DNA of 64,000 nt from Escherichia coli (GCF_050320075.1 NZ_CP190019.1), one strand, 5' to 3'; shown: positions 36,001 to 42,000, numbered from the stretch's first letter. A program made the numbers.

Positions 36001-39000
36001 GAGTTTTCTCCTTCATTACAGAAACGGCTTTTTCAAAAATATGGTATTGATAATCCTGATATGAATAAATTGCAGTTTCATTTGATGCTCGATGAGTTTT
36101 TCTAATCAGAATTGGTTAATTGGTTGTAACACTGGCAGAGCATTACGCTGACTTGACGGGACGGCGCTTCCCTACCCTCATGGCCGCCTCCCAGGAATCG
36201 ACCCAGGTGCTTATCGTGGACATAATCCTTTACTCATAAATTGGCACTGTTGCAAAGTTAGCGATGAGGCAGCCTTTTGTCTTATTCAAAGGCCTTACAT
36301 TTCAAAAACTCTGCTTACCAGGCGCATTTCGCCCAGGGGATCACCATAATAAAATGCTGAGGCCTGGCCTTTGCGTAGTGCACGCATCACCTCAATACCT
36401 TTGATGGTGGCGTAAGCCGTCTTCATGGATTTAAATCCCAGCGTGGCGCCGATTATCCGTTTCAGTTTGCCATGATCGCATTCAATCACGTTGTTCCGGT
36501 ACTTAATCTGTCGGTGTTCAACGTCAGACGGGCACCGGCCTTCGCGTTTGAGCAGAGCAAGCGCGCGACCATAGGCGGGCGCTTTATCCGTGTTGATGAA
36601 TCGCGGGATCTGCCACTTCTTCACGTTGTTGAGGATTTTACCCAGAAACCGGTATGCAGCTTTGCTGTTACGACGGGAGGAGAGATAAAAATCGACAGTG
36701 CGGCCCCGGCTGTCGACGGCCCGGTACAGATACGCCCAGCGGCCATTGACCTTCACGTAGGTTTCATCCATGTGCCACGGGCAAAGATCGGAAGGGTTAC
36801 GCCAGTACCAGCGCAGCCGTTTTTCCATTTCAGGCGCATAACGCTGAACCCAGCGGTAAATCGTGGAGTGATCGACATTCACTCCGCGTTCAGCCAGCAT
36901 CTCCTGCAGCTCACGGTAACTGATGCCGTATTTGCAGTACCAGCGTACGGCCCACAGAATGATGTCACGCTGAAAATGCCGGCCTTTGAATGGGTTCATG
37001 TGCAGCTCCATCAGCAAAAGGGGATGATAAGTTTATCACCACCGACTATTTGCAACAGTGCCCATCGGCGTAGTAGTGGATGTGGTCGATGACAAAGCCG
37101 GTGCGGGTCAGCGTGCGCCGGAGGATCGGCAGAAAATCGACCAGGAACGAAGTAGCGCGTGTGACGACGGCCGGTACGCCGACACGCGCCACGGCCTCGG
37201 CCCAGCGCGCGGCCGGCGGTTGGAGCAGGCCGTTGTGCACCGAACCGTGGTAGGTGCCGACCGCCAATGTGAGCCAGCGCTCTAGCTCGCGCAGCGTCAG
37301 GGCGGCCTTGTTTTCGGAATCGTAGTCGCCGCGCTGGTCAGGGTTGGAGAAGGTCGTTCCCGGCAGTTCGTCGTGAATCATCTGCATCGCCGTGCCGATG
37401 ATCCGTTCCACGATGCCGCCATAGTGCGGCTGTCCCAGCGGGCGATAGTCCAGCCGGATGCCATGCTGCTCGCAACCCCGGCGCAGGGCCTCGCTCTTGA
37501 ACTCGGCCGCGTTGTCTAGGTAGAGCAGCAAGGGCTTGCCGCTCATCTGCCAATCCATTTCCACGTTCAGTCCTTCCAGCCAAGGGCGCTTGTCGCAGGC
37601 GACATGCACGAGGCACAGGCCAACCGAAACGGCAGACGGCGCTTCCAGCGTGACGACCATGCCGAGCACGCAGCGGGTGAACACGTCGATGGCGAGGGTC
37701 AGGTACGGGCGGCCAATAGGTTGCCGGTCGCGGTCATCGACCACGATCAGGTCGATGACCGTATGGTCTATCTGCACCTGCTCCAGCGGCGCGGTCACGG
37801 CAGGAGGCTCGCCGCCCACACCTTGTAGGTCACGAGCGGCATCCTGGCCTTCCCGCCGGCGGATGACCTTGCGCGGGTCAAGGCTAGCGATCCGTAAGGC
37901 CACGGTATTGCGCGCCGGCACTCGCAGTTTTTGAGCCTTGCACACCTGAGTGACTTCGCGGTGAAAGGCCGCTAGGCTGCGCTTCTGCTTGGTCAGGAAC
38001 CGCTTTTGCAGTAGCTCGTGGATGACGCGCTCGACCGGTTCCGGCAAGCGCCCCTTACCTTTACCTCCACCGGACTGGCCGGGCACCAGATCCGTCACGA
38101 GGCCGCTGCCTTGCCGGGCACGCCGGATCAGAACGTATACCTGGCGCCGAGACAAGCCCAGCGCCTGAGCCGCCATATCGGCCGCTTCGTGCCCGACCGT
38201 CTCCGACTGCGCCAACGGACTGATGATCTCCGCACGACGGCGCGCACGCTCCCAAGCCTCATCAGGCAGAGTGGCCACGCCTTGTTCTGGAATCCGTGGG
38301 GTGTCCGTCGCCATGCTCACCTCGCTTTGGTGCACACGAGTATTGAGCATAGTCGAGATTGGTGCAGATCACTTCTGATATTGAACTGTCAGGAGCTGGC
38401 TGCACAACAGCCATTACGCCCAATCAACTGGTGCAGTCGTCTTCTGAAAATGACACGCAGCGTGGCCATTCCTGACATCCAGTTAGGGTATGCCTTAAAT
38501 TGACGCTCCGACATGAGTTGTGTATTAGATATAACTTATTGTAGTATTTGTAACATTAATCATCTTTTTGACGAAGGAGCCCGTGCTTGAGCTTTCTTGC
38601 CCTATTCGTCAGCCTGCCCACCAAGGCATCGACCGGCCGCATGCGCGTCTGGCGTTCTGTCAAAGCGCAGGGCTGCGCAACGCTGCGCGACGGGGTCTAT
38701 CTGCTGCCCGACTCGGCGGACAGTGCGGCGACGCTGGGCGAAGTTGTGGGAGGAAAATAAAGTGTCATCCTAACTACAGGACCCTGCAACGTAGCAATTC
38801 CTGCAAAAATCCATTTAAAACAATGACTTATTTCAATTCTGCCATCTGCAAGCGTTTTGTGGGGATGGAGGCCGGAATCATTAAAGTATCATCCTAATTT
38901 TCGCTCAACCTTGGAAAATGCTGAGAATCGTAAAAATAAAGTTTCATCCTTTCCGCTACTAGTTCAAGGCTTTCTTCCGGCCGCCGGCAACAACGCTGCT

Positions 39001-42000
39001 TGGCTGAGGCGATCCACTTGCGCTACCGCTCACTGATCAGATCGAACTTGAACTCGACGAGCAGCCAACCATCAGGCCGAGCGTGATCGCCAAAAAAAAC
39101 GGATCATGCGAAATCCTTCGTTGAGTTTGGCGCGGGTTTTAGCAAATCAGCTGGCCCGCGATCCGGTTGAGAGTGATCCGAAGCGGTCCTTGACGACCGG
39201 CACAAATCGGCCGATTCTGTTGAAAAAGTAGCTTTAGCGGCAGCCTGCCGATCAGGTGTGCCTGCTGTCGAAGTGGCTGCAAGCCACTTCAAGTTGCCTT
39301 CCGGCGTTTCACTGAGCGTCCTTGCTCAGGTTTAAGGGTTAATTTGAGGGTTTCTGCTCGTAGCAGGCATACCTATCCCGTCAGCGGTGGCCCTTGAGGC
39401 AAAAGCTTGGCCATGCGGCGCAGGTTCTGCACCATCGCAGCCAAGGTGAATTCGTCAGTGGCACCCGTTAGGCCACGCAGTCGTAAACGGTCGAGTTTCA
39501 TGATCCGTTTGAGGTGGGCGAAAAGCATCTCCACCTTCTTTCGTTCGCAGCGAGAGACGAGGTACTCCGGTGTCTTGGCGATGCGTCGAGCCACGTCGCG
39601 GGCAGCCTCATGGATGCTGCGGACGATCTTCCGATTCGGCGTGTTGGGGCAGCATTTCGCTTTCAACGGGCAGGTGGCGCAGTCGGTTTGGCTGGAGCGG
39701 TAAATGACGGTTTTGGCCTTAGTTACCCGCGACCTTTGCTGGGTGAAGGCGCGCCATTCACTGCGTAGCGGTTTGCCGGCTGGGCAGCGATATTCATTGG
39801 CGTCCTGACTCCAGTGAAAGTCGTTACTGGAGAGGCTGTCGTCCTTGCGCTCGGTCTTGTCCCACACCGGCACATGCGGTTCGATGTCCTTTTCTTCGAC
39901 CATCCAGGCCAGCATCGGGGCGGTGCCATAAGCGGTATCGCCGATAAGGCGTTCCGGTGTGAGATCGAACTGCGCCTCGACACGCTCGACCATCGTCCTA
40001 GTCGAATCGACTTCGGCGGTACGGTGCGCCGGGGTAGCTTCCACGTCCATGATCACACCGTGCTCAGTGTCGATCAGGTAATTCGTGGAGTAGGCAAAAA
40101 AGGCCGGGCCACCTGGCGCTGCTGTCCAACGGGACTGAGGATCAGTGAGCGAAATTTTCTTGGGAAGAGCCTCAGCCAGCGCCTCTTCATCAAGGGCTTC
40201 GAGGTACTCGCGCACTGCGCGGCTGCTGAGCTTTGGATCGTTCCAATCGACCTCATCTCCCGCCACCCCACGTTGCCGGCTGGCATCCGCCTTAATGATG
40301 CTGGCGTCGACGGCGAAACCTTCACCCTTGACTAGGCCGGCTGCCATGCAGCGCCGCAGCACCTCATTGAATAACCAGCGGAATAGATCGCTGTCACGAA
40401 AACGCCCATGGCGATTCTTCGAGAAGGTCGAGTGATTGGGGACTTCGTCTTCCAGACCCAACCGGCAGAACCAGCGATAGGCCAGGTTCAGGTGCACCTC
40501 TTCGCACAATCGCCGCTCGGAACGAATGCCATAGCAAGTAGCCGACGACCAGCATGCGCACCATCAACTCCGGGTCAATCGAGGGACGCCCGATGGGGCT
40601 ATAGAAATCTGCCAGGTAGGCACGTAGATCACTGAGATCCAAGCACTGGTCGATGCTGCGCAGGAGATGTTGGGCCGGGACGTGATCTTCCAGATTGAAC
40701 GAGTAGAACAGGCGCTGCTGTCCTCCCGGTAACTGTCCCATCATGCTGTTCGCCCCCACGCTCGCTGACAAAGCAATTTTGCCAACGGCATGGGGAGGCC
40801 GCTACTTTTTCAACAGAATCGGCCGCACACAGCCATTCGGCTCAACAGAACCCTGCCTTTACCCCACCAAACTCCGGAAACTCGCCCGGTAGTCCGTCGG
40901 CTTGAGATGCACATGTTGGCTGAGGTCGCCGGGTAGCGTGAACAGGCGCGGACCGTCCCGAAACTGGAACACGCGATACAGATGGAATTGATCGCCCGCC
41001 TCCTTGGAGAATTCGAGTTCGTTGTGGCTGACCAAGAAAGACGAGCCTACCCCGCCATTGGTGGTTTTCACCTCGATGAAGCGCTCATGGGCGTCCTCTT
41101 CGAACGACAGGATGTCGAACCCCGCACCGTCTCCCTGGGTGTCGGACACCCAATCCAGCCGCTGAAAAAGCTCTGGGTGGCCGAGCTCGGTCAGGCGTTG
41201 CTGTTCGTAGCCAATCACCCACTGCTCCCCTGCCCGGCCCAGCTTGCGGTTGGCTTCATCGCGAGCGGCATAATCGAACTTTCGCGGTAGGCGTTGCCGT
41301 AGAGATGCCGGGGTACGCACAAGCACTTCACGGGCGGGTGGTTCTACCAAAGCCGCTCGGTAGGTTTTGTCACCCGGAAGTTTTACCTCCTCCAGGGCAT
41401 CGACAAGAGCGCCGACCGTCTGCTGATGTTCCAGAACGTAGGCGTGTACGGATTTACGCAGCAGCAGTTGGCTGTTGCCGCGTGGCTTGTAGCCGTTGAT
41501 ATAGGGCAGGCCCAGGGCATCGAGTACGGCGCTAATGTTCTGGTGCTTGAGCTCGACTGAAGACTTGCTGCGACCGTTCAGCAGTTGGCGCAGTGCCTGG
41601 TTGTGCTCGGACTTGTTGTACGGCTCCCCAGCCGCCTCGGCACGCAGCATGTCGAAATAGTCTTCGACCGTGGCCAGGACCTCTTCTTCGGACCAGTCTT
41701 CGCCGATGCGAATGATGCGAAACCCGAGCCGCGTCAGCGCCGGAACGACGGTCGCCTCGCCACCGGAGAAGCTGTCAGCAGTGAGCGGGCCCTGCTCGGG
41801 AAATTGCTTGCCGAAGGCCACACCGGCGATGGCCTTGGAATCGCAATCGGTGCCGGTCTTCGGATCACGTACCAGGAAGTCGCGGGACTTGCCGTAGCCG
41901 TGGCGCGCCAGGAATTTCGTGCGGCCCAGTTGCACGAACTCATCGATGGCAGCCTGCACGGCGGCGGGGCTTCGAAGCTGGGAGAGTTGAGACACAGGGT

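What the first reader, a model, noticed from the sequence alone, without database searches (positions are those of the whole stretch)
38456..39207. Region outside the integron IRt with a res-like site and three ATAAAGT-N-TCATCCT direct repeats
Just beyond IRt the sequence tgacatccagttagggtatgcc resembles the Tn21-type res subsite seen at about 25170-25200, consistent with Tn402-family insertion near a res site. It is followed by a short ORF (MRVWRSVKAQGCATLRDGVYLLPDSADSAATLGEVVGGK) and three spaced copies of a 15-bp motif. These could be iterons, regulator-binding sites or the eroded end of another element.
Basis: seen in the sequence. Interest (0 to 1): 0.3.

Follow-up and report, generated by a model that had tools for sequence, protein, structure and literature searches.

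The report
Orphan Tn6411 transposon end in chrB
The three repeats are the already published transposase-binding sites at one end of the Tn7-like resistance transposon Tn6411, which landed in a chromate-resistance gene beside an integron and later lost its transposition genes; this is ordinary, known mobile-element debris.

Summary

- **38456-38744:** a piece of a Tn3-family chromate-resistance transposon of the kind found on pUM505 (tnpA-tnpR-res-chrB-chrA). It holds a res I-like site at 38473-38505 and the first 52 codons of chrB. The integron IRt ends at 38455, 17 bp from res I, which is typical of a Tn402-family "res hunter" insertion.
- **From 38745:** the terminus of the Tn7-like transposon Tn6411 (5'-TGTGGGAG). 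The three motif copies are its published TnsB-binding sites.
- **Shared arm:** the same 5,675-bp arm (38745-44419: ISCfr1, a DUF3883 gene, tmrB, aac(3)-IId) occurs in about 700 plasmids. In all nine different left flanks examined (eight loci plus the window), the join is at exactly this nucleotide.
- **Copies with both ends:** these carry 5-bp target duplications, and the complete copy also has tnsABCDE.
- **This window:** it has neither tns genes nor the other end, so this is an immobile relic.

One small twist: the common aacC2-tmrB module looks like an abandoned Tn6411 arm, not a Tn2-derived module that entered Tn6411 as the open literature says.

Novelty: already known. Interest: low.

The parts
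38431..38455 (+). IRt, the 25-bp outer inverted repeat of the Tn402-type tni module of the class 1 integron. The tniA remnant 37063-38350 lies on the - strand and is cut by IS26 at 36243-37062. This is context that bounds the finding.
   Evidence: The sequence is identical to the IRt given for In992 in Table S2 of PMC11232968.
38456..38744 (+). 289-bp fragment of a Tn3-family (Tn21-subgroup) chromate-resistance transposon. It covers part of res, the chrB upstream region and the chrB 5' end.
   Evidence: It is 99.6% identical over 38471-38744 to pUM505, where the order is tnpA-tnpR-res-chrB-chrA. It is about 99.9% identical across 37060-38744, with the same IRt junction and an intact chrB, in pNY5709-IMP. 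Only 49 plasmids carry at least 80% of it.
38473..38505 (+). res I-like resolvase site TGACATCCAGTTAGGGTATGCCTTAAATTGACG. It is orphaned: there is no tnpR and no res II/III beside it.
   Evidence: 28 of 33 bases match the Tn21 site at window 25177-25209. It also aligns with the corresponding site of pUM505, downstream of res III/II-like sites and the tnpR start.
38587..38744 (+). chrB 5' fragment: TTG start, 52 codons plus 2 nt. The ORF runs on to 38760 by reading ..VGGK* from the transposon end.
   Evidence: The start corresponds to the annotated ChrB CDS of pNY5709-IMP and pUM505. Intact copies read ...GGCGAAGT|GGCGGCGCAGG, whereas the window reads ...GGCGAAGT|TGTGGGAGG.
38745..38752 (+). 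8-bp terminal sequence TGTGGGAG of Tn6411. This is the tnsA-distal end, equivalent to Tn7-L.
   Evidence: This is the first nucleotide shared with about 650 plasmids. Nine different left flanks (the window and eight other loci) join at exactly this base. It equals the published Tn6411 terminal repeat.
38753..38774 (+). TnsB-binding site 1 (GAAAATAAAGTGTCATCCTAAC), directly abutting the terminal 8 bp.
   Evidence: It overlaps the published 'TnsB binding site 6' (Tn6411 positions 2-21). The core is conserved in all 12 sites of Tn6411 and of a relative whose tnsA region is 90% identical.
38877..38898 (+). TnsB-binding site 2 (ATCATTAAAGTATCATCCTAAT), 102 bp after site 1.
   Evidence: It overlaps the published 'site 5' (positions 126-145). 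It is conserved in the K. variicola relative while the spacer has diverged.
38932..38953 (+). TnsB-binding site 3 (AAAAATAAAGTTTCATCCTTTC), 33 bp after site 2.
   Evidence: It overlaps the published 'site 4' (positions 181-200) and is conserved in the relative.
38745..39207 (+). Terminal 463 bp of Tn6411, up to the ISCfr1 insertion point.
   Evidence: It is part of the 99.98% match of window 38745-44419 to Tn6411 of p201330-IMP, positions 606-6280 of locus L008.
39208..40825 (-). ISCfr1 (IS1182 family) inserted in the Tn6411 arm. The transposase is frameshifted by a 1-bp insertion near 40536.
   Evidence: The IRs match Table S2 of PMC11232968. Pfam finds DDE_Tnp_1_6, DDE_Tnp_1 and DUF772. The frameshift is seen against the pCTX-M3 copy and is shared with Tn6411.
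40826..44419 (-). Rest of the retained Tn6411 left arm. It holds a DUF3883/NOV_C gene (40859-41995), two small ORFs, a tmrB-like AAA ATPase (42970-43512) and aac(3)-IId (43525-44385).
Evidence: The match to Tn6411 stops at 44419.
44421..45215 (+). ISVsa5 (IS10-like) fragment that ends the Tn6411 arm in this window. It is itself cut by IS26, which starts at about 45216.
   Evidence: It is 100% identical to copies annotated 'IS4-like element ISVsa5 family transposase'. Sequence is and the IS26 match.

Best explanation
The region is a three-layer scar left by nested mobile elements, and none of the layers is active here.

1. **Integron into res.** A Tn402-type class 1 integron, a 'res hunter', inserted into the res region of a Tn21-subgroup chromate-resistance transposon of the pUM505 type. 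Its IRt came to lie 17 bp from res I, on the side away from tnpR. What survives of that transposon is res I, the chrB upstream region and the chrB start.
2. **Tn6411 into chrB.** A Tn7-like transposon of the Tn6411 family then inserted by cut-and-paste into codon 53 of chrB. The expected 5-bp target duplication is GAAGT.
   - Its tnsA-distal ('left') end starts at 38745 with the 8-bp tip TGTGGGAG.
   - Three roughly 22-bp TnsB-binding sites follow, separated by 102 and 33 bp.
   - In an active element, TnsB would bind these sites, pair this end with the tnsA-proximal end (which has three contiguous sites at 20-bp spacing), and cut and join at the TGT tip.
3. **Later truncation.** IS events (ISVsa5/IS10, IS26) removed everything beyond 44419, including tnsABCDE and the other end. 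They also cut the integron's tni module.

**Shown:** the identity of each piece, the exact junctions, and the absence of tns genes and of a second end in the window.

**Inferred:** TnsB binding and the order of the deletions. It is also inferred that the stump is now inert, apart from a possible 'target immunity' effect against incoming Tn6411-type elements.
For: **Match to published Tn6411.** The terminal 26 bp and the three sites match the published Tn6411 'IRR' and 'TnsB binding sites 6, 5, 4' at positions 2-21, 126-145 and 181-200 (PMC11232968 Table S2).

**Match to a complete copy.** Window 38745-44419 is 99.98% identical to the arm of the complete 37,556-bp Tn6411 in p201330-IMP. That copy encodes proteins with these Pfam hits:
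- TnsA N- and C-terminal domains
- Mu-transposase C-terminal domain (TnsB)
- AAA_22/TniB (TnsC)
- TniQ plus TnsD
- TnsE_C

**Target duplications.** Three copies that have both ends carry 5-bp duplications:
- CCTAC in L008
- ATCAA in L005, a 9,226-bp derivative
- GTTGC in L014, a 10,744-bp derivative inserted in tniB

**Exact junctions.** Nine different left flanks join at exactly TGTGGG. Counted types are chrB in 42 plasmids, tniB in 21, and Tn2 upstream of blaTEM-1 in 444.

**Conservation in a relative.** A Tn7-like element in K. variicola with a 90%-identical tnsA region keeps the tip and all three sites at similar offsets, while the spacers have diverged.

**Architecture.** Three spaced sites at one end and contiguous sites at the tnsA end mirrors Tn7 (PMC9308760).

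**Disrupted chrB.** Intact chrB in pUM505 and pNY5709-IMP reads straight across the insertion point.

**Nothing mobile left.** There is no Tns homologue and no further motif copy in the window.

**res side.** Evidence is, and in PMC7765201.
Against: - No binding or transposition experiment exists for this TnsB and these sites. The published 'TnsB-binding sites' are themselves sequence-based annotations.
- The predicted right-hand junction (CCCACA|GAAGTGGCGG...) was not found in any plasmid of the collection. The GAAGT duplication for this particular insertion is therefore inferred, not seen.
- The integron insertion cannot be confirmed by a 5-bp duplication. In the window and in pNY5709-IMP, the IRi side sits in a different context: GGTTT against CGCAG.
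Confidence: 0.94

Rival explanations
1. The three repeats are iterons of a plasmid replication origin, bound by a Rep initiator.
For: They are direct repeats of similar length in one orientation within AT-rich DNA.
Against: - The spacing is irregular (124 and 55 bp) and no rep gene adjoins them.
- The same sites occur at the tip of a transposon that has 5-bp target duplications and, in its complete copy, tnsABCDE.
- They travel with aac(3)-IId into plasmids of IncF, IncC, IncI1, IncL/M and IncP types, which a replicon-specific origin would not do.
Confidence: 0.01
2. The repeats are operator sites for a regulator of chrB or of a downstream gene, such as ChrB itself or a PadR- or TetR-type repressor.
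For: They lie just after the chrB 5' end, and repeated sites are typical of operators.
Against: - Intact chrB loci (pUM505, pNY5709-IMP) have no such repeats, because the sequence at that point is chrB coding DNA.
- The repeats begin only after the foreign junction at 38745.
- The consensus scan found only one promoter-like site in the region, at 38472-38501, which overlaps the res I-like site and lies outside the repeats.
Confidence: 0.02
3. The view in the open literature is that aacC2-tmrB-orfs-ISCfr1 is a Tn2-derived module, and that truncated forms of it were later integrated into Tn6411. On that view the sequence from 38745 belongs to that module rather than to a Tn7-like transposon end.
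For: - This is stated in PMC7096625 and PMC11232968.
- The Tn2/blaTEM-1 junction is by far the commonest, at 444 plasmids.
- The pCTX-M3 copy carries the intact, and so presumably older, ISCfr1 transposase gene.
Against: - The module's boundary is the functional Tn6411 tip itself. It pairs with the tnsA-proximal end and 5-bp duplications in three loci.
- It is conserved in a relative that carries entirely different cargo.
- It abuts nine unrelated flanks at the same nucleotide.
- A module 'integrating into' Tn6411 could not bring the transposon's own terminus with it. The Tn2 junction is itself one more insertion of such an end, into the tnpR-bla interval of Tn2.
Confidence: 0.04
4. The orphan end is not inert. 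Its TnsB sites could give the plasmid target immunity against incoming Tn6411-family elements. Alternatively, the end could be re-mobilised if a compatible right end and Tns proteins were present in the cell.
For: - In Tn7, TnsB-binding sites in a target DNA inhibit insertion into it (PMC9308760).
- The sites here are intact.
- Far more plasmids carry the lone end (about 700) than carry the Tn6411 tnsA end at 99% identity or better (20).
Against: - Nothing was tested.
- The abundance is explained more simply by hitch-hiking with aac(3)-IId and IS26.
- No second end exists in the window.
Confidence: 0.1

Closest known systems
Tn6411, a Tn7-like transposon of P. aeruginosa and Acinetobacter (Zhan et al. 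2018, J Antimicrob Chemother 73:3005; PMC11232968)
   Same: The terminal repeat and the three annotated TnsB sites are identical. The whole arm 38745-44419 is 99.98% identical, including the frameshifted ISCfr1.
   Different: Only 5,675 bp of the 37.5 kb is present. The window has no tnsABCDE, no In992 and no second end. The insertion site is chrB rather than attTn7/glmS or the sites described so far. The paper calls this end 'IRR', but by Tn7 convention it is the left, tnsA-distal end.
Tn7, the prototype
   Same: - An 8-bp tip beginning TGT (TGTGGG, from memory of the Tn7 sequence)
- Roughly 22-bp TnsB sites
- An asymmetric layout, with three spaced sites at the left end and contiguous or overlapping sites at the tnsA end
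- A 5-bp target duplication
- TnsA, B, C, D and E
   Different: - The spacers are 102 and 33 bp, against 42 and 31 bp in Tn7.
- The right end has three sites at 20-bp spacing, against four overlapping sites in Tn7.
- The site sequence is different.
- The published description reports very low nucleotide identity to the Tn7 counterparts.
Tn7-like element carrying a heat-resistance locus on K. variicola plasmid p1_020019 (L012, about 16660-44627)
   Same: The tnsA region is 90% identical. The tip is the same (TGTGGGA) and three left-end sites sit at similar offsets (10/155/210 against 10/134/189).
   Different: The cargo is entirely different (the annotated Trx-GI, sHSP20-GI and YfdX1 heat-resistance genes, among others). 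The spacers between the sites are unrelated.
Chromate-resistance Tn3-family transposon of pUM505, and the res site of Tn21
   Same: The gene order is tnpA-tnpR-res-chrB-chrA. Identity is 99.6% from res I into chrB. The res I-like site is 85% identical to that of Tn21.
   Different: Only res I and 52 codons of chrB remain. The 17 bp left of res I, plus one base in its left half-site, differ from pUM505 (6 of 20 and 1 mismatches), while everything to the right is near-identical. That pattern would be expected after a res I crossover between two related transposons.
Tn5053/Tn402 'res site hunter' insertions, for example into res of Tn6603, Tn1721 or Tn501
   Same: The insertion lies in the res I-res II interval, with IRt on the side away from tnpR.
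   Different: No flanking 5-bp duplication can be shown, because the IRi side lies elsewhere. The tni module is truncated by IS26.

Membership tests
Tn7-family transposon end (Tn6411) | An 8-bp terminal sequence beginning 5'-TGT at a sharp element boundary | tested here: met
   TGTGGGAG lies at 38745-38752. Nine different flanks join at exactly this base. The tnsA-proximal end has the same tip, TGTGGGAT.
Tn7-family transposon end (Tn6411) | An array of roughly 22-bp TnsB-binding repeats arranged asymmetrically: spaced in the left end, contiguous or overlapping in the right end | tested here: met
   The left end has three sites at offsets 10, 134 and 189. The right end has three sites at offsets 10, 30 and 50. 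The criterion comes from PMC9308760.
Tn7-family transposon end (Tn6411) | A 5-bp target-site duplication | tested here: inconclusive
   This is met for three other copies (CCTAC, ATCAA, GTTGC). It cannot be seen for the chrB insertion, because the other end is deleted and the predicted junction is absent from the plasmid collection.
Tn7-family transposon end (Tn6411) | Linked tnsA, tnsB, tnsC and a target selector (tnsD or tnsE) | tested here: not met
   These genes are absent from the window. They are present in the complete copy, L008, with the matching Pfam domains. The window therefore holds a fragment of a member, not a functional member.
Tn7-family transposon end (Tn6411) | Sequence identity to the named element | tested here: met
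   Identity is 99.98% over 5,675 bp, and the published IR and sites are identical.
Tn7-family transposon end (Tn6411) | TnsB actually binds the sites and cleaves at the tip | not testable with these tools
   This needs an EMSA or footprint and a transposition assay.
res site of a Tn21-subgroup Tn3-family transposon | Position upstream of a serine-resolvase gene (tnpR), with three sub-sites | tested here: not met
   This is met in the uninterrupted relative pUM505, where tnpR, res III/II-like sites and res I are all present. In the window only res I remains, and the integron replaces the tnpR side. It is a remnant, not a functional res.
res site of a Tn21-subgroup Tn3-family transposon | Sequence similarity to an established res I with dyad-symmetric half-sites | tested here: met
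   28 of 33 bases match the Tn21 site in the same window. The half-sites are TCCAGTTAGGG and TCAATTTAAGG (the second read on the reverse complement), against TCAGGTTAGGG and TCAGGTTGAGG in Tn21. That the Tn21 site is res I rests on my knowledge of Tn21.
Tn402/Tn5053 'res hunter' insertion | A Tn402-type IR abutting a res region, in the typical orientation (IRt distal to tnpR) | tested here: met
   IRt lies at 38431-38455, 17 bp from res I on the chrB side. The criterion comes from PMC7765201.
Tn402/Tn5053 'res hunter' insertion | A 5-bp direct duplication flanking IRi and IRt | tested here: not met
   The IRt flank is CGCAG. In pNY5709-IMP the IRi flank is GGTTT, next to a different recombinase gene. 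In the window IRi sits in Tn21. The integron is therefore a recombinant of two insertions.
Plasmid iterons | Regularly spaced repeats adjoining a rep gene or origin, specific to one replicon | tested here: not met
   The spacing is irregular, no rep gene is adjacent, and the repeats are present on many replicon types.
ChrB | A full-length chrB reading frame (314 codons in the relatives) | tested here: not met
   Only codons 1-52 remain, identical to those of the annotated ChrB genes. The 57-aa stump gives no Pfam hit.

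The most novel reading that the evidence does not exclude
The aac(3)-IId-tmrB ('aacC2-tmrB') module, found on roughly 700 sequenced plasmids, may not be what the open literature says it is. That literature treats it as a Tn2-derived unit that later entered Tn6411.

Instead it would be the abandoned left arm of Tn6411-family Tn7-like transposons:
- They delivered it to plasmids in at least eight separate Tn7-type insertions, including the classic Tn2/blaTEM-1 junction of pCTX-M3.
- Each time, the tns half was then stripped away by IS-mediated deletion.

On this reading a Tn7-like transposon, probably using its TnsE pathway, was the original vehicle that moved this gentamicin-resistance gene into conjugative plasmids.
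Probability: 0.7. Interest if true: 0.3.

Novelty: already known. Interest (0 to 1): 0.15.

Why it matters
For the finding itself, very little. It closes a question by showing that a puzzling repeat cluster is the annotated end of a published transposon, sitting in a known chromate-resistance transposon beside a known integron end.

It has two practical uses:
- The exact landmarks (IRt at 38455, res I at 38473-38505, the Tn6411 tip at 38745, ISCfr1 at 39208) allow clean annotation of a region that standard pipelines leave blank. 'None' was annotated under the match in almost every plasmid record listed.
- Recognising the TGTGGG tip as the true boundary of the widespread aac(3)-IId module gives a precise marker for tracing how that gene spread. 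It also suggests that Tn7-like transposition, and not only IS26 and Tn2, seeded it into plasmids.

Tried and rejected
- **Rfam scan of 38300-39400 at a permissive threshold.** The only hit was a chance-level match inside ISCfr1 (LPR10, E = 0.31).
- **Promoter and terminator scan of 38400-39260.** It found one promoter-like site, overlapping res I, and no terminators. That is no more than in shuffled sequence.
- **Search for the other half of chrB in the window.** Absent.
- **Search for the predicted chrB right junction in the plasmid collection,** using a chimeric query (Tn6411 right end + GAAGT + the rest of chrB). No record covered both halves.
- **Attempt to confirm the integron insertion by a 5-bp duplication in pNY5709-IMP.** The flanks differ, and IRi lies next to another recombinase gene.
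- **NCBIfam scan of the Tn6411 Tns proteins.** Nothing useful came back. Pfam did identify them.
- **P. monteilii copy (L004), examined as a possible intact variant.** Its end is cut by an ISL3 element and no tns genes lie within 20 kb.
- **Subscription papers.** Partridge et al. 2012 on pEl1573 and the 2018 Clin Microbiol Rev review are not held. I therefore could not check whether the Tn7-like nature of the module boundary has already been noted there.
- **Iteron and operator readings.** Rejected for the reasons given under the rival explanations.

Full report
**1. What is in the sequence**

The 25-bp IRt of a Tn402-type class 1 integron occupies 38431-38455, so the finding begins at the first base outside it. 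IRt is preceded by a tniA remnant that IS26 has cut.

Its only relative in the window is at 25177-25199. That is 2 matches against 0.00 expected in shuffles.
- The three 15-mers lie at 38757, 38881 and 38936, all on the + strand. They are the only copies in 64 kb, with 3 exact matches against 0.00 expected.
- The short ORF is real. It is part of a 57-codon frame at 38587-38760.

**2. A sharp boundary at 38745 splits the region in two**

A megablast of 38456-39372 against 72,556 plasmids found 718 records. Only 42 of them contain the whole query. Nearly all the others begin matching at query position 290, which is window 38745, the T of TGTGGGAGG.

I read the left flank in the window and in eight other loci. 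All nine flanks differ, and every one joins at exactly this nucleotide:
- chrB (this window)
- tniB
- a resolvase gene that has lost its 5' end
- the tnpR-bla interval of Tn2
- five unrelated plasmid backbones

Counts for three junction types are 42 (chrB), 21 (tniB) and 444 (Tn2/blaTEM-1, including pCTX-M3). A boundary reused like this is the signature of a transposon terminus.

**3. The right-hand part (38745-39207) is the end of Tn6411**

Table S2 of PMC11232968 lists, for the Tn7-like transposon Tn6411:
- a terminal repeat TGTGGGAGGAAAATAAAGTGTCATCC
- 'TnsB binding sites' at positions 2-21, 126-145 and 181-200
- the ISCfr1 repeat CGGCCGATTCTGTTG...

All of these match the window exactly, at 38745, 38746-65, 38870-89, 38925-44 and 39208.

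Window 38745-44419 is 99.98% identical to the arm of the complete Tn6411 on p201330-IMP. That copy is 37,556 bp long and flanked by a CCTAC duplication. It encodes proteins with these Pfam domains:
- TnsA N- and C-terminal domains
- Mu-transposase C-terminal domain (TnsB)
- AAA_22/TniB (TnsC)
- TniQ plus TnsD
- TnsE_C

Two deletion derivatives also keep both ends and a 5-bp duplication. One is 9,226 bp in an A. pittii plasmid (ATCAA). The other is 10,744 bp in tniB of an E. coli IncC plasmid (GTTGC).

Putting all sites in register gives an 8-bp tip followed by roughly 22-bp sites with the core AAATAAAGTNTCATCC.
- At this end the sites sit at offsets 10, 134 and 189.
- At the tnsA-proximal end they are contiguous, at offsets 10, 30 and 50.

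This is the asymmetry described for Tn7: three spaced sites on the left and overlapping sites on the right (PMC9308760).

A relative with a 90%-identical tnsA region, on a K. variicola plasmid, carries a heat-resistance locus as cargo. It keeps the tip and all three sites while the spacers have diverged, which is a phylogenetic footprint of constraint on the sites.

The published 20-bp site windows are shifted about 7 bp outward from the conserved core. The paper also names this end 'IRR', although by Tn7 convention it is the left, tnsA-distal end.

**4. The left-hand part (38456-38744) is a stump of a chromate-resistance Tn3-family transposon**

It is 99.6% identical to pUM505 from 38471 onward. 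On pUM505 the order is tnpA, tnpR, about 270 bp of intergenic DNA, chrB, chrA.

I aligned the pUM505 intergenic region with the Tn21 tnpR-res region present elsewhere in the window. The alignment shows shared res III/II-like elements and, furthest from tnpR, the 33-nt site in question. That site agrees with Tn21 at 28 of 33 bases and has dyad-symmetric half-sites.

IRt lies 17 bp to its left, in the res I-res II interval with IRt distal to tnpR. That is the location and orientation reported for Tn5053/Tn402 'res site hunters' (PMC7765201).

pNY5709-IMP has the identical IRt junction followed by an intact chrB-chrA-SOD-chrB-domain cluster. The integron/chr junction therefore predates the Tn6411 insertion.

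Intact chrB reads ...GGCGAAGT|GGCGGCGCAGG, whereas the window reads ...GGCGAAGT|TGTGGGAGG.

**5. State of the element in this window**

No Tns homologue is present. The only TnsB hit is the distantly related TniA of the integron, at 29% identity. No further copy of the site motif is present either.

The arm stops at 44419/44420 against an ISVsa5 (IS10-like) fragment, which IS26 in turn cuts. The remainder of chrB is absent.

The end is therefore an orphan and cannot move by itself. Its presence in the window is best explained by hitch-hiking with aac(3)-IId inside an IS26-bounded resistance region of an IncF-type E. coli plasmid. The arrangement is identical in pSF-468-1.

**6. Comparison with what is known, and novelty**

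Every component is already described: Tn6411 and its ends, Tn7-type end architecture, res-hunting by Tn402-family elements, and the pUM505 chr determinant. Novelty is 'already known' and interest is low.

**7. One point that goes beyond the literature I could read**

PMC7096625 and PMC11232968 treat 'aacC2-tmrB-orfs-ISCfr1' as a module derived from Tn2, truncated forms of which were integrated into Tn6411.

The data here point the other way. The module's outer boundary is the functional Tn6411 tip, and the Tn2 junction is simply one more insertion of that tip. The module is thus most simply the left arm of Tn6411-family elements that remained after the tns half was deleted.

Only 20 plasmids carry the Tn6411 tnsA end at 99% identity or better, against about 700 that carry the left end. 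The pCTX-M3 copy has an intact ISCfr1 transposase gene. The window, Tn6411 and the other loci share a 1-bp frameshift, so the Tn2-junction lineage branched off early.

I could not check the subscription literature for prior statements of this point.

**8. Unresolved**

The inner boundary of the shared arm is odd. After ...AAACACTATAC:
- Tn6411 continues with a 25-bp tandem repeat.
- pCTX-M3 continues with the outer terminus of a Tn2-type 38-bp IR.
- pNY5085-IMP continues with a different Tn3-family-like IR next to strB.
- The window has a single G and then ISVsa5.

Why two different Tn3-family termini sit at the same nucleotide is not explained.

Noticed in passing
window 44400-44421; L013 8147-8300; L003 13658-13760; L008 6262-6330: The inner boundary of the shared Tn6411 arm (...AAACACTATAC|) abuts different sequences in different plasmids:
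- In pCTX-M3 it abuts the outer terminus of a Tn2/Tn3-type 38-bp IR.
- In pNY5085-IMP it abuts a different Tn3-family-like IR next to strB.
- In the window it abuts a single G followed by an ISVsa5/IS10 end.
- Tn6411 itself continues with a 25-bp tandem repeat.

Two different Tn3-family termini sit at the identical nucleotide, in the same orientation. This is unexplained.
   Followed up: partly
window about 40535-40536 (inside ISCfr1, 39208-40825): The ISCfr1 copy carries a 1-bp insertion relative to the pCTX-M3 copy. This splits the transposase into 378-aa and 125-aa ORFs. The same lesion is present in Tn6411 of P. aeruginosa and in the other arm copies examined, but not in the Tn2-junction lineage (L009, L013).
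   Followed up: partly
window 38456-38481 against L006 7000-7026: Identity to pUM505 is 99.6-100% to the right of the centre of res I. It drops to 14 of 20 in the 20 bp to its left, with one further mismatch in the left half-site. This is the pattern expected if the ancestor was a res I crossover hybrid of two related chr transposons.
   Followed up: partly
window 38745; L002 8001; L003 8002; L014 2466: Three of the nine distinct Tn6411 left-end junctions lie in or within 300 bp of a Tn402 tni module (tniB, tniR, and 289 bp outside IRt). This could be sampling bias, because resistance regions are rich in integrons, or it could be a regional preference.
   Followed up: no
L012 about 16660-44627 (K. 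variicola plasmid p1_020019): A relative of Tn6411 (tnsA region 90% identical, same tip and site layout) carries a roughly 20-kb heat- and stress-resistance locus as cargo (annotated Trx-GI, sHSP20-GI, YfdX1, a further Hsp20-family protein, HtpX, HdeD, PsiE and others) in place of resistance genes. About 20 Klebsiella and Enterobacter plasmids in the collection have this tnsA variant.
   Followed up: partly
L011 12690-12720 and L007 6975-7005 (pNY5709-IMP): The integron whose IRt abuts the chr res site has its IRi next to a different recombinase gene in a type I restriction-modification region. The 5-bp flanks do not match (GGTTT against CGCAG). That integron is therefore a recombinant of two separate res-site insertions.
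   Followed up: partly
window 38746-38765, 38870-38889, 38925-38944: The 20-bp 'TnsB-binding sites' published for Tn6411 are offset about 7 bp outward from the core that is actually conserved across all 12 sites of Tn6411 and its relative (AAATAAAGTNTCATCC). The published 'IRR' label is also the opposite of Tn7 convention, because this is the tnsA-distal end.
   Followed up: yes
window 25060-25210: A Tn21 tnpR start (MTGQRIGYIRVS... on the - strand from 25073) with its res region survives next to an IS26. The window therefore contains remnants of two different Tn21-subgroup res regions, each beside integron sequence.
   Followed up: partly
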